DNA of 64,000 nucleotides. Origin: Escherichia coli (GTDB lineage: Bacteria; Pseudomonadota; Gammaproteobacteria; Enterobacterales; Enterobacteriaceae). This document shows, piece by piece, positions 42,201-45,200 of the stretch. Where the stretch lies: NCBI RefSeq assembly GCF_030013205.1, contig NZ_CP122648.1; one strand, written 5' to 3'. A program made the position numbers. Position 1 is the first letter of the stretch; the number at the start of each line of letters is the position of its first letter.

Positions 42201-45200
42201 TCAGACGCCTGCTACGGCAAAAAAAGCGTCGTCTACGCAATCTCGTCCGGTGAATGCTGGTATGAAGAAACGCCCTAAAGCGGCGGTTGGACGTTAAAAA
42301 ATATCCCCGGTAACAGAATGCTACCGGGGATATTTTTATCATTCTGCGTACATACGCAAGCAGCGCAGGCAATCAAAATAGTCCTGAGCATCAAGACGCG
42401 TATTGGCTCTGTTAGCGTCGGATTTGGCAGCATAGATTTGTGGGCGTAATGCTTTCATATCCTGCTCAAGCCGGGCGATTTTGGCATTTAATGTTTGCAC
42501 ATTGCTCGCCAGCTGATTGACCTTTTGCTTATTGACGCAGCCACTGAGCAAGCAGGTTGCCAGAACAACAGCTCCCACGGTGAAAATCGTTTTCATATAG
42601 TGTTCCCTTTTATTTATTGTTCCGGCTAATTGTTATTTAATTCAGCTCATTGCTTTAATCTGGCGGCGGTTTTTGCCTCAATTTGCTTAAGTAGGCTGCC
42701 GCTGTTCGGGCGGATAAAATCAGCGATTTCCCACTTACCTTCGCGCCGCTGTAAAACCAGTTCTTGCTCTTCGTTGTTGCCATTGGTCAGCGTAAAACGA
42801 ACATGAATGCGGGCGGAATCGGCGGTTTTCTCCAGGACACGGATTTCATCAACGCGTGAAAATAGCGACTCTTCGCCAAAACAGATCGGATTGTCGTAAA
42901 TAAATTGCCGTTCTATTTGCATATCTTCATCGGGATTGTTGGCCGTTTTGAAGGTGGTTTTATAGAAGGCATTGACTGCCTGGCGGTAAGAGTCGGAAAC
43001 CACCCACGTCCACGGCCAGCTATAATCAGCAATATGTTCAAAGAGTTCGGCAACAAAGGCTTCCGGCTGTTCTTTTTGCAACGAAGCTATAGCGGCCAGC
43101 GTTTTTTCATTCTCGCTATTAACTGCTTGTAATACGCTGCCATGATTGCTGACAATATCGTCAATGACCCAACGACCATTTTCCGCCACCATTTTCAGTG
43201 TCTGCGTGGTCTTTTCTTTATCGTCTTTAAAGATACGGAAGCGCACAACGGCATCGGCATGATCGGCGTCAGGTTGGGTTATCGCTACGCTTTCTAACAC
43301 CAGATCGCCAAAATCCTGACAATCACAAACCGGATCATAATCCAGCCAGCCAATATTGCCCGGTAGTGTAAGATTGTCGTTCAGGGTAAGCGCCTGTTGA
43401 ATACGCGCTGAAGTTATCGCCCGCTCTCCGGTTTCACCGAAATAAGGCGTACTGGCATCTGATTTATAGTTCTGATAAATCTGCCGGACTGTTTGTTCTA
43501 CGGTCTGTGAAGGAGGCTGCGCGTGTACGGTAAAACTTGCCAGGGCTGCTAAAAACAGAAGTATTATTTTCATCTGTTTTTCACCTCTCCGTTGCGTTTA
43601 TCCCGGGTGTAGATGAGTTGTTCCTTTAAGAGCTTCCGGCTCTGCATGATGATGTCCTTATATTTGGCATTCCTGAACAAGGAAGAGTAACAATGGGCAG
43701 GACGCGAGGGGAATAAATGATTTCTGAAAAGTCCGGTAGCGGAACATTACCGCCACCGGGAGAATTTGCACGTTAGCCGCCAAACTGGTCAGGATCGGGA
43801 CCGAGACGCTTGCCCTGATCGAGTTTTGCAATTTCGCCGAGTTCGTCTTTGTCGAGACGGAAGTCCCAGACGTCAAAGTTTTCGACAATGCGTGAAGGTG
43901 TGACCGATTTCGGGATCACCACCAGGCCGCTATCCAGATGCCAGCGGATAACAATCTGCGCCGGGGTTTTGCCGTATTTATCTGCCAGATCGCGAATGAC
44001 TTTCTGATCGAAAACGCCTTTCCCTCCTTGCGCTAATGGGCTCCAGGATTCGGTCTGGATTTTGTGTGTCGCGTTCCAGGCATGTAGCTGGCGTTGTTGC
44101 ATCAGCGGGTGAAGTTCGATCTGATTAATAACAGGCGTCACGCCAGTTTCATCAATCAGGCGTTGCAGGTGATGGATCTGGAAGTTGCACACGCCGATGC
44201 TTTTGATTAATCCCTCTTTTTGCAATTCGATCATGCCTTTCCATGCTTCGACATAATGGTCGATAGCGGGAACGGGCCAGTGCATTAAGTAGAGGTCGAT
44301 ATAATCAAGCTGGAGTTTTTTCAGGCTGTCGAGCAGGGCTTCGCGGGGGCGCTTGTGGTCGTCGTTCCACAGCTTAGTGGTGATGAACAGTTCTTCTCTG
44401 TTGACTGAGGCATTTTTCAGGGCTTTGCCGACACCTTCTTCGTTCTTATAGGCCGCGGCGGTATCAATCGAGCGATAACCCACGTCTAACGCTTTTTGAA
44501 TGGCGGTGATTACTTCCTCATTACTTGCTTGCCAGACGCCCAGTCCCAACTGGGGCATGACATTGCCATCCTGTAGCTTAATAACGGTTGGATTAGCCAT
44601 ACGTTCCTCCTTTATATGAACTCACCGGAGCAGGCTCCGGTGAGGTGTTGTGAACTTAAGTCTGGACGAAATGCCCGAAAACGAAAGTTTGAGGCGTAAA
44701 AAGCTTAGCGGGCGGCTTCGTATATGCGGCGGCTGACATCCAGCGTAATGTCATGATTTTCGCCCAGTTGGGTCATACCGTGATCTTCCAGTTTTTTCAA
44801 CAAAGCCGGGATGGAGCTGCCGTCCAGACCGTAGTCGGAGAGGTGGGTCGGCACGCCTAATTGCTCAAAGAAATTGCGGGTTGCGGCAATCGCGGCGTCA
44901 ATACGCTCATCGTCGGAACCTTCTGTGATGTTCCAGACGCGTTCAGCATATTGCAGCAGCTTAGCGCGCTTAGTATCGCGTTTTTCATTCCACAGTGCAG
45001 GCAGGACGATAGCCAGTGTTTGCGCGTGATCCAGACCGTGCATCGCAGTCAGTTCGTGGCCCAGCATATGCGTTGCCCAGTCCTGCGGTACGCCAGCGCC
45101 GATCAAACCGTTCAGCGCCTGAGTCGCCGCCCACATAACGTTGGCGCGCACATCGTAGTTTTCTGGCTCTTTCAGGGCTTTCGGACCATCTTCGATCAGC

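What the first reader, a model, noticed from the sequence alone, without database searches (positions are those of the whole stretch)
44621..44644. Stable hairpin in the dkgA leader between yqhD and dkgA
CTCACCGGAG-CAGG-CTCCGGTGAG is a perfect 10-bp stem in the 104-bp yqhD-dkgA spacer, about 10 nt upstream of the dkgA SD. It has no T-run on the transcribed strand, so it is more likely an mRNA processing/stability element or partial attenuator in the yqhD-dkgA co-transcript than a terminator.
Basis: seen in the sequence. Interest (0 to 1): 0.25.

Follow-up and report, generated by a model that had tools for sequence, protein, structure and literature searches.

The report
Conserved hairpin ending yqhD transcripts
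A strong RNA hairpin between the aldehyde-reductase genes yqhD and dkgA is real, is kept by compensatory mutations across enteric bacteria, and marks a mapped RNA 3' end in E. coli; it is an ordinary operon-internal 3'-end or stability element, not a classical terminator.

Summary
Window 44621-44644 is a perfect 10-bp stem with a 4-nt loop in the 104-nt yqhD-dkgA spacer. Both genes are on the minus strand, and the spacer is 100% identical to E. coli K-12.

- **Not chance:** P is about 3.5e-4 in shuffled spacers.
- **Conserved structure:** it is the only structure RNAalifold keeps across 72 Enterobacteriaceae spacers. Nine of 10 pairs show compensatory changes, and there are 60 distinct hairpin sequences.
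- **No terminator tail:** the tail is U-poor. E. coli has UUCAUAUA, and 45 of 72 orthologues have at most 2 U in 8 nt.
- **Mapped 3' ends:** published 3'-end maps (TRS, PMC10687069) place RNA 3' termini at K-12 3,156,605-3,156,608 in three datasets. That is 3-6 nt past the stem.
- **Read-through:** DkgA and YqhD proteins are co-induced about equally, 41-fold and 35-fold.

Best reading: a malE-malF-type intercistronic hairpin that blocks 3'-exonucleases and defines a yqhD-only mRNA. Weak termination is the main rival.

An SD-masking junction seen in the E. coli fold did no better than shuffled controls.

Beside the hairpin lies a nearly invariant 32-nt block, part of Rfam ES173, which remains unexplained.

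Novelty: a new member of a known kind. Interest is low to moderate.

The parts
44621..44644 (-). The hairpin: 5' arm 44644-44635, loop CCUG 44634-44631, 3' arm 44630-44621. Equivalent to K-12 3,156,579-3,156,602.
   Evidence: Covariation. Single-copy and nearly invariant in 5,412 of 5,426 E. coli genomes.
44615..44618 (-). Mapped in vivo RNA 3' termini of yqhD transcripts, with dominant positions at K-12 3,156,605, 3,156,607 and 3,156,608. These are +3 to +6 after the stem.
   Evidence: TRS supplementary data, PMC10687069. Coordinates converted using the 100% identical alignment and the K-12 annotation.
44606..44612 (-). dkgA Shine-Dalgarno sequence AAGGAGG, 5 nt before the ATG at 44600.
   Evidence: Read directly from the sequence. 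Conserved in the alignment.
44656..44687 (-). Nearly invariant sequence block CUUUCGUUUUCGGGCAUUUCGUCCAGACUUAA, upstream of the hairpin. Its function is unexplained.
   Evidence: Alignment of 72 spacers. No conserved structure there. Invariant in 5,407 of 5,412 E. coli genomes.
44639..44702 (-). Match to Rfam RF02753 (ES173 sRNA). It starts 3 nt after the yqhD stop codon and ends 6 nt inside the 5' arm of the hairpin.
   Evidence: 99 bits against a gathering score of 90.
44705..45868 (-). yqhD coding sequence, the upstream gene of the operon.
43773..44600 (-). dkgA coding sequence, the downstream gene of the operon.
43724..43759 (-). The operon's terminal terminator: stem CCGGUGGCGG...CCGCUACCGG followed by ACUUUUCAG. 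The mapped 3' end is at K-12 3,157,494/5.
   Evidence: Sequence. 3' ends in Adams 2021 and TRS.
45928..46006 (-). YqhC operator palindrome ATTTCTCCAGCACTCTGGAGAAAT (46006-45983) and the yqhD promoter (-35 TTGAGA at 45956-45951, -10 CACAAT ending at 45928). This promoter drives the co-transcript.
   Evidence: PMC10991953. gSELEX finds a single YqhC site.

Best explanation
The hairpin is an intercistronic RNA stem-loop inside the YqhC-activated yqhD-dkgA operon. It defines the 3' end of a yqhD-only mRNA species.

Proposed mechanism:
- RNA polymerase largely reads through the hairpin into dkgA.
- The co-transcript is then cut downstream of the hairpin, in the A/U-rich stretch before the SD or within dkgA.
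- 3'-to-5' exonucleases (PNPase, RNase II) digest back and stall at the GC-rich stem, leaving ends 3-6 nt past it.
- The yqhD segment, and any small spacer fragment such as ES173, is thereby protected while the dkgA segment decays. The two mRNA levels become uncoupled, as at malE-malF.

What is shown: the hairpin exists, its structure is under purifying selection as sense-strand RNA, RNA 3' ends map just after it in vivo, it lacks a U-tract, and dkgA is co-induced.

What is inferred: the exonuclease-barrier mechanism and the differential stability of the two segments.
For: - Structure conserved, sequence not. There are 60 distinct hairpin sequences among 72 standard spacers, with a median free energy of -17.5 kcal/mol. 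Ten of 11 pairs have changes on both sides and 87.6% of cells are paired. RNAalifold predicts only this helix in the whole spacer, with 9 of 10 pairs compensatory.
- Sense-strand RNA. Non-Watson-Crick cells are G.U 45 times and A.C 18 times, which points to the sense-strand RNA rather than to DNA or the antisense strand.
- In vivo 3' ends. Termini map at +3 to +6 in three datasets, with signal 0.89-0.98 and adjusted p-values down to 5e-105. In one dataset the signal exceeds that of the dkgA terminator, 0.916 against 0.599.
- No U-tract. The maximum run in E. coli is 2 U. Forty-five of 72 orthologues have at most 2 U in the 8 nt after the stem. The terminator scan is negative.
- Read-through. 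DkgA rises 41-fold and YqhD 35-fold, and both mRNAs rise in yqhC gain-of-function strains.
- Interchangeable hairpin. In two Buttiauxella loci (L073, L077) a short ERIC palindrome takes the place of the native hairpin.
- Established class. Dar and Sorek 2018 found that 26 of 34 operons with a stabilised 5' gene have a 3' end right after a stable hairpin lacking a U-tract, usually conserved in Salmonella and Enterobacter.
Against: - No half-life data for yqhD against dkgA were available. The operon does not appear in the held supplements of Dar and Sorek 2018.
- Adams 2021 Term-seq, as far as the held text goes, lists the dkgA 3' end but none at the hairpin.
- 3' ends at +3 to +6 fit weak termination equally well. 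The E. coli tail does begin with UU.
- Nearly equal protein induction says nothing about absolute stoichiometry.
- A purely protective role does not obviously explain the near-constant 7-12 nt distance to the SD. However, ERIC insertions of 80-135 nt are tolerated at that position in four species.
Confidence: 0.5

Rival explanations
1. Partial, non-canonical transcription terminator (attenuator). A fraction of RNA polymerases stop at the hairpin, possibly helped by NusA or NusG. This sets a fixed yqhD:dkgA transcription ratio, and the rest read through.
For: 3' ends map at +3 to +6 with high signal, stronger than the dkgA terminator in one dataset. The stem is GC-rich with 10 bp. The E. coli tail starts UU and has 4 U in 8 nt. 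About a fifth of orthologues have at least 4 U in 8 nt, for example UUUUAUCU and UUUCAUCU. The methylglyoxal RNAP ChIP-chip paper names yqhD but not dkgA among induced genes, which is weak evidence.
Against: The longest U run is 2. The tail is not conserved, and most genera have 1-2 U, for example Enterobacter AGCAAAUG and CGCACCUG. The stem is nevertheless strongly conserved, so the conserved function cannot depend on a U-tract. The terminator scan is negative. DkgA is induced as strongly as YqhD.
Confidence: 0.25
2. The hairpin is the 3' structural module of a small RNA of about 86 nt, derived from the 3' UTR or intercistronic region (ES173 extended to its real 3' end). RNase E would release it by cutting just after the yqhD stop codon (GC|UUUUU). 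The invariant block would be its functional, seed-like part.
For: The Rfam ES173 match starts 3 nt after the stop codon. No 3' terminus is mapped at the model's 3' boundary, whereas termini are mapped just after the hairpin. The real end is therefore probably the hairpin. The 5' end sequence fits the RN|WUU RNase E motif cited, and a U run after the stop codon is kept in most genera. The block is nearly invariant between genera without any conserved structure. It is also invariant in 5,407 of 5,412 E. coli genomes.
Against: There is no U-tail for Hfq binding. No target is known, and no 5'-end, Hfq or ProQ data could be retrieved. ES173 reaches the Rfam gathering score only in Escherichia. The original ES173 paper could not be read. 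This reading is compatible with the best explanation rather than exclusive of it.
Confidence: 0.1
3. Translational control of dkgA. In one version the hairpin helps build a three-way junction in which CCUC, just after the yqhD stop codon, masks the dkgA SD, giving translational coupling. In another version it acts as an insulator or standby platform next to the SD.
For: The E. coli minimum-free-energy fold pairs ACGCCUC with GAGG..CGU around the two stem-loops. The hairpin sits a near-constant 7-12 nt from the SD. Forcing the first 15 nt (the stop codon plus 12 nt) to be unpaired raises predicted SD accessibility from 0.26 to 0.34 on average.
Against: Native SD accessibility (0.26) equals that obtained with shuffled upstream patches (0.26), with mean z = 0.02. 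RNAalifold does not keep the junction helices. The apparent covariation in the SD columns is a register shift in the alignment. ERIC insertions separate the hairpin from the SD in four species.
Confidence: 0.05
4. papBA-type 5' protective hairpin. RNase E cuts just upstream of the hairpin, and the stem then shields the processed dkgA mRNA from further 5'-end-dependent attack.
For: This is a known class. The invariant GAC|UUAA in the block resembles an RN|WUU site. The hairpin lies directly upstream of the dkgA ribosome-binding site.
Against: The experimentally mapped ends at this site are 3' ends after the stem, not 5' ends before it. A cut at AC|UUAA would leave about 14 unpaired nt 5' of the stem, which is poor protection. 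No 5'-end data were retrieved.
Confidence: 0.05

Closest known systems
malE-malF-type intercistronic 3' protective hairpins (differential operon decay; the Dar and Sorek 2018 class)
   Same: A stable stem-loop without a U-tract, lying after the 5' gene of an operon. RNA 3' ends lie immediately downstream in vivo. The structure is conserved in related enterics, and the downstream gene is still expressed.
   Different: The malE-malF element is a REP (repeated) sequence, whereas this hairpin is single-copy. Most elements in the Dar and Sorek set lie inside the downstream ORF, whereas this one lies in the spacer. Differential half-life has not been shown here.
Intrinsic (Rho-independent) terminators and attenuators
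   Same: A GC-rich 10-bp stem with a 4-nt loop, and 3' ends a few nucleotides after the stem.
   Different: No U-tract is present (longest run 2 U, and the tail is not conserved). Read-through is substantial. The operon's real terminator lies after dkgA (43759-43724).
Rfam RF02753 ES173 sRNA
   Same: Same locus. The model covers 44702-44639 at 99 bits.
   Different: The model stops inside the 5' arm, so the hairpin is not part of the family model. No 3' terminus is mapped at the model's end. Only Escherichia reaches the gathering score, although the core block is conserved much more widely.
Small RNAs derived from a 3' UTR or intercistronic region, such as SroC (gltI-gltJ), CpxQ and OppZ
   Same: The position just after a stop codon, a candidate RNase E 5' end, a conserved single-stranded block followed by a 3' hairpin, and a location inside an operon (as for SroC). 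The family comparison rests on my own knowledge and on PMC7398697 as listed.
   Different: Those sRNAs end in U-tailed terminators and bind Hfq. Here there is no U-tail, no known partner protein and no known target.

Membership tests
Intrinsic (Rho-independent) terminator | GC-rich stem-loop | tested here: met
   A 10-bp perfect stem with 7 G-C pairs, -17.8 kcal/mol.
Intrinsic (Rho-independent) terminator | U-rich tract immediately 3' of the stem | tested here: not met
   The tail is UUCAUAUA, with a longest U run of 2. The scan requiring at least 5 T in 8 does not call it. At most 2 U in 8 nt in 45 of 72 orthologues.
Intrinsic (Rho-independent) terminator | Blocks expression of the downstream gene from the upstream promoter | tested here: not met
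   From the literature: DkgA rises 41-fold against 35-fold for YqhD with vanillin, and both mRNAs rise in yqhC mutants.
Intrinsic (Rho-independent) terminator | Factor-independent RNA release in vitro | not testable with these tools
   Requires single-round in vitro transcription.
Intercistronic 3' protective hairpin (malE-malF / Dar and Sorek class) | Stable hairpin without a U-tract, downstream of the upstream gene within one transcription unit | tested here: met
   Operon status.
Intercistronic 3' protective hairpin (malE-malF / Dar and Sorek class) | RNA 3' end immediately downstream of the hairpin in vivo | tested here: met
   TRS termini at +3 to +6 in three datasets. Not listed in the held Adams 2021 tables.
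Intercistronic 3' protective hairpin (malE-malF / Dar and Sorek class) | Structure conserved in related species | tested here: met
Intercistronic 3' protective hairpin (malE-malF / Dar and Sorek class) | Upstream segment longer-lived than downstream segment, dependent on the stem and on 3' exonucleases | not testable with these tools
   Needs rifampicin-chase data and mutants. yqhD is absent from the held supplements of PMC5927463.
Rfam RF02753 ES173 sRNA | Score at or above the gathering threshold | tested here: met
   99 bits against 90 for 44702-44639. The hairpin itself lies outside the model apart from 6 nt.
Rfam RF02753 ES173 sRNA | A discrete small transcript with the modelled ends | tested here: inconclusive
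   No 3' terminus is listed at K-12 31565xx, which would include the model's end at 3,156,584. Termini lie at 3,156,605-608 instead. No 5'-end data were available, and the source paper is not held.
REP/BIME or ERIC repeated palindromes | Multi-copy family with a consensus sequence | tested here: not met
   The 38-nt query finds a median of 2 places per genome, which I take to be the one palindromic locus read on both strands; this was not checked directly. There are no other copies in the window. ERIC elements are present in some orthologous spacers, but as separate insertions.

The most novel reading that the evidence does not exclude
The spacer encodes a conserved intercistronic small RNA of about 86 nt. 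It would consist of the U-run after the yqhD stop codon, the invariant block UUUCGUCCAGACUUAA and the hairpin as its 3' end. It would be cut out of the aldehyde-induced yqhD-dkgA transcript and act in trans, or bind a protein. One possibility is feedback on the YqhC circuit: the operator and 5' region of yqhC carry CUGGAGAAA, which is complementary to the block, and the block resembles a half-site of that operator.
Probability: 0.1. Interest if true: 0.55.

Novelty: new member of a known kind. Interest (0 to 1): 0.28.

Why it matters
yqhD and dkgA are the main NADPH-dependent aldehyde reductases behind furfural, glyoxal, glutaraldehyde and vanillin tolerance. yqhD is also widely used in metabolic engineering.

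A conserved element that sets how much yqhD-only message forms relative to full-length message would explain how one promoter yields different amounts of the two enzymes. It is a small, portable part (24 nt) for tuning operon stoichiometry.

The finding also corrects the likely 3' boundary of the Rfam ES173 entry. In addition, it flags an unusually conserved neighbouring block that has no assigned function.

Tried and rejected
- **Three-way junction masking the dkgA SD (translational coupling).** It was attractive in the E. coli fold. SD accessibility was no lower than with shuffled patches, and RNAalifold did not retain the junction. I rejected it as unsupported.
- **Internal sigma-70 promoter for dkgA in the spacer.** The consensus scan finds none. 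TTGACA in Enterobacter and TATAAA in E. coli are not conserved and are badly spaced (inspection).
- **Sigma-54, sigma-E and marbox readings of the conserved block.** Manual inspection found no convincing match.
- **Membership of REP or ERIC.** The hairpin is single-copy.
- **The block pairing with the yqhC translation start.** The E. coli yqhC ATG is not conserved as a start codon in other genera. The UUUC part of the block varies to UUUG or UUUA without compensation. I kept this only as a low-probability note.
- **A second YqhC DNA site at the block.** There is a resemblance to the operator half-site, but gSELEX reports a single YqhC site.
- **A small ORF in the spacer.** There is no start codon, and indels break any frame.
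- **Literature dead ends.** Raghavan 2011, Lee 2010 and Thomason 2015 are not held. Dar and Sorek NAR 2018, Conway 2014 and Melamed 2016 have no held supplements. Kim 2012 lists only orthologue pairs. Searches combining yqhD with sRNA, Hfq or small RNA found nothing relevant.
- **Control: hairpins downstream of dkgA.** The region is confounded by CCCUCUCCC/GGGAGAGGG repeat elements, so it gave only a rough comparison: at least 5 U of 8 in 23 of 79 loci, against 5 of 72 for the intercistronic hairpin.
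Full report
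**Observation**

The + strand at window 44621-44644 reads CTCACCGGAG-CAGG-CTCCGGTGAG. Both flanking genes are on the minus strand: dkgA is 44600-43773 and yqhD is 45868-44705. The RNA therefore reads CUCACCGGAG-CCUG-CUCCGGUGAG, followed by UUCAUAUAAAGGAGGAACGUAUG.

The stem ends 8 nt before AAGGAGG. The whole spacer is 100% identical to E. coli K-12 MG1655, so K-12 data apply directly. The conversion is K-12 coordinate = 3,201,223 minus window coordinate, which puts the hairpin at 3,156,579-3,156,602.

A perfect stem this long arose in 7 of 20,000 dinucleotide shuffles of the spacer. Only four perfect tight inverted repeats of at least 10 nt exist in the 64-kb window.

**Comparative evidence**

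A scan of one genome per species with DkgA returned 80 Enterobacteriaceae loci. All 80 have yqhD directly upstream of dkgA. In 72 of them the spacer is 98-112 nt, with one shared layout:
- the yqhD stop codon, followed by a U run;
- a variable pyrimidine-rich patch;
- a nearly invariant block, CUUUCGUUUU-N5-AUUUCGUCCAGACUUAA;
- a short linker;
- a hairpin whose sequence differs but whose stem is kept;
- 7-15 nt of variable sequence, then the AGGAGG SD and the ATG.

There are 60 distinct hairpin sequences. The typical stem is 9-12 bp and the median free energy is -17.5 kcal/mol.

On the MAFFT alignment, 10 of the 11 hairpin pairs show changes on both sides. For example, one column pair reads CG 23, AU 16, UA 15, UG 8. 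In all, 87.6% of cells are paired, and the helix far exceeds the shuffled and slid controls. RNAalifold was given no structure in advance. It returns this hairpin as the only conserved helix of the spacer, with 9 of 10 pairs compensatory.

Non-canonical cells are G.U 45 times and A.C 18 times. That bias is expected if the sense-strand RNA, rather than the DNA or the antisense strand, is the selected form.

Within E. coli the hairpin is single-copy. It is present in 5,412 of 5,426 complete genomes, and PGAP annotates nothing there.

**Why it is not a classical terminator**

- The tail UUCAUAUA has a longest U run of 2, and the terminator scan does not call it.
- In 45 of 72 orthologues the 8 nt after the stem hold at most 2 U. 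Enterobacter, for example, has AGCAAAUG. The conserved function therefore cannot depend on a U-tract.
- The operon's real terminator lies after dkgA at 43759-43724, a stem followed by ACUUUUCAG. A 3' end is mapped there by two studies.
- dkgA depends on the upstream YqhC-activated promoter. Both mRNAs rise in yqhC gain-of-function strains.
- DkgA and YqhD proteins rise 41-fold and 35-fold with vanillin.
- gSELEX finds a single YqhC site, in the yqhC/yqhD spacer.

**Experimental ends**

The TRS study (PMC10687069) lists 3' termini annotated 'Alternative primary in TU, yqhD' in three datasets:

| Dataset | Peak (K-12) | Dominant | Signal | Best adjusted p |
|---|---|---|---|---|
| Supplementary Data 2, first | 3,156,601-610 | 3,156,605 | 0.983 | 0 |
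| Supplementary Data 2, second | 3,156,602-614 | 3,156,607 | 0.916 | about 5e-105 |
| Supplementary Data 3 (LB RNAtag-seq sheet, judged by its columns) | 3,156,603-612 | 3,156,608 | 0.894 | 3.6e-50 |

- The signal is L/(L+D), the share of RNA ends at the site relative to ends just downstream.
- The paper's own fold of the upstream sequence is this hairpin, at -18.8 kcal/mol.
- These positions are +3 to +6 after the stem, or window 44618-44615.
- In the second dataset the hairpin signal exceeds that of the dkgA terminator, 0.916 against 0.599.
- No terminus is listed at 31565xx, the range that would hold the 3' boundary of the Rfam ES173 model.
- One discrepancy remains. The held Adams 2021 Term-seq tables list the dkgA end but none at the hairpin.

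**Mechanism**

The features are: a stable U-less hairpin after the first gene of an operon, 3' ends immediately downstream, conservation of structure, and continued expression of the downstream gene.

These match the class described for malE-malF and generalised by Dar and Sorek. In their set, 26 of 34 operons with a stabilised 5' gene end right after such a hairpin, with no sign of Rho-dependent termination, and the structure is conserved in Salmonella and Enterobacter.

I therefore favour an exonuclease barrier that creates and stabilises a yqhD-only mRNA (confidence 0.5). This is an inference, because no half-life or nuclease-mutant data were available.

The main rival is weak, non-canonical termination (0.25). 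The E. coli tail begins with UU, and ends at +3 to +6 fit either model. The two readings are not exclusive.

A natural experiment fits the idea that any stable hairpin will do. In two Buttiauxella loci a short ERIC palindrome replaces the native hairpin. In four other species, ERIC copies of 80-135 nt sit between the hairpin and the SD. I identified ERIC from its classic primer sequences, which I know from memory.

**Rejected idea**

The E. coli minimum-free-energy fold forms a three-way junction in which CCUC, just after the yqhD stop codon, pairs with the dkgA SD. That suggested translational coupling. Across 70 distinct orthologues, however, SD accessibility is the same as with shuffled patches: 0.26 against 0.26, with mean z of 0.02. 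RNAalifold also drops those helices. The apparent covariation in the SD columns is an alignment register shift.

**Surroundings**

Rfam ES173 (RF02753) matches 44702-44639 at 99 bits against a gathering score of 90. The match starts 3 nt after the stop codon at GC|UUUUU, which fits the RN|WUU RNase E motif. It ends 6 nt inside the hairpin's 5' arm.

Since 3' ends map after the hairpin and not at the model's boundary, the small RNA, if real, probably extends to the hairpin and would be about 86 nt.

The ES173 core block is nearly invariant across genera and in 5,407 of 5,412 E. coli genomes. It has no conserved structure, and outside Escherichia it falls below the Rfam threshold. Its function is unexplained.

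The block GCATTTCGTCCAGACT resembles the left half of the YqhC operator, GCATTTCTCCAGCACT. However, gSELEX shows one YqhC site, and the complementary-RNA reading shows no covariation.

**Verdict**

The hairpin is real, strongly selected as RNA, and associated with an in vivo 3' end. It belongs to a known kind of operon-internal 3'-end or stability element. Interest is low to moderate. The neighbouring invariant block is the more open question.

Noticed in passing
window 44656-44687 (-): A 32-nt block, CUUUCGUUUUCGGGCAUUUCGUCCAGACUUAA, is nearly invariant across 70 distinct Enterobacteriaceae spacers and in 5,407 of 5,412 E. coli genomes. It has no conserved secondary structure and no known function. 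It forms the core of Rfam ES173.
   Followed up: partly
window 44654-44669 (-) compared with 46008-45993 (-): The block GCATTTCGTCCAGACT resembles the left half of the YqhC operator palindrome GCATTTCTCCAGCACT (11 of 16 ungapped, about 14 of 17 with gaps). It is also complementary to CUGGAGAAA. gSELEX reports only one YqhC site, so the significance is unknown.
   Followed up: partly
window 44698-44704 (-): A U run directly after the yqhD stop codon (UAA-GC|UUUUU) coincides with the 5' end of ES173. It fits the RNase E RN|WUU motif and is kept in most genera (GCGUUUUU, GGUUUUUU).
   Followed up: no
window 46005 (+), the yqhC start: The annotated E. coli yqhC ATG, which abuts the operator palindrome, is not an ATG in most other genera. 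Similarity to YqhC begins around residue 3-20 elsewhere, and the Klebsiella yqhC is 765 nt against 957 nt. The true start may lie downstream, or the N-terminus may be specific to Escherichia.
   Followed up: partly
L038, L043, L044 and L078 (spacers upstream of position 2501); L073 and L077: ERIC (IRU) elements are inserted between the hairpin and the dkgA SD in four species. In two Buttiauxella loci a short ERIC palindrome replaces the native hairpin.
   Followed up: partly
L005, about 2456-2483: In E. coli strain E69 the same stem carries the loop CAGG, the reverse complement of the K-12 loop CCUG. This looks like a loop inversion (template-switch type). The stem is also extended to 12 bp.
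   Followed up: no
L067, 2232-2500: A Buttiauxella MAG has a 269-nt spacer with two copies of the hairpin, GACACCGGGUUUGCCCGGUGUC and UACACCGGGCUUGCCCGGUGUA. They flank about 165 nt of unidentified inserted sequence.
   Followed up: no
window 46317-46333 (-): GTGGCATAGGTTTCGCA lies inside yqhC and points towards yqhD. It is the intragenic sigma-54 binding site IA25 reported by Bonocora et al. 2015 (PMC4591121).
   Followed up: partly
Loci L011-L079, the 10-110 nt after the dkgA stop codon: Many genera carry very stable CCCUCUCCC...GGGAGAGGG palindromic repeat elements downstream of dkgA, down to -54 kcal/mol. They stand in place of, or beside, a canonical terminator.
   Followed up: no
window 43724-43759 (-): The dkgA terminator, CCGGUGGCGG-UAAUGUU-CCGCUACCGG followed by ACUUUUCAG, has its 3' end mapped at K-12 3,157,494/5 by two independent studies.
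   Followed up: yes
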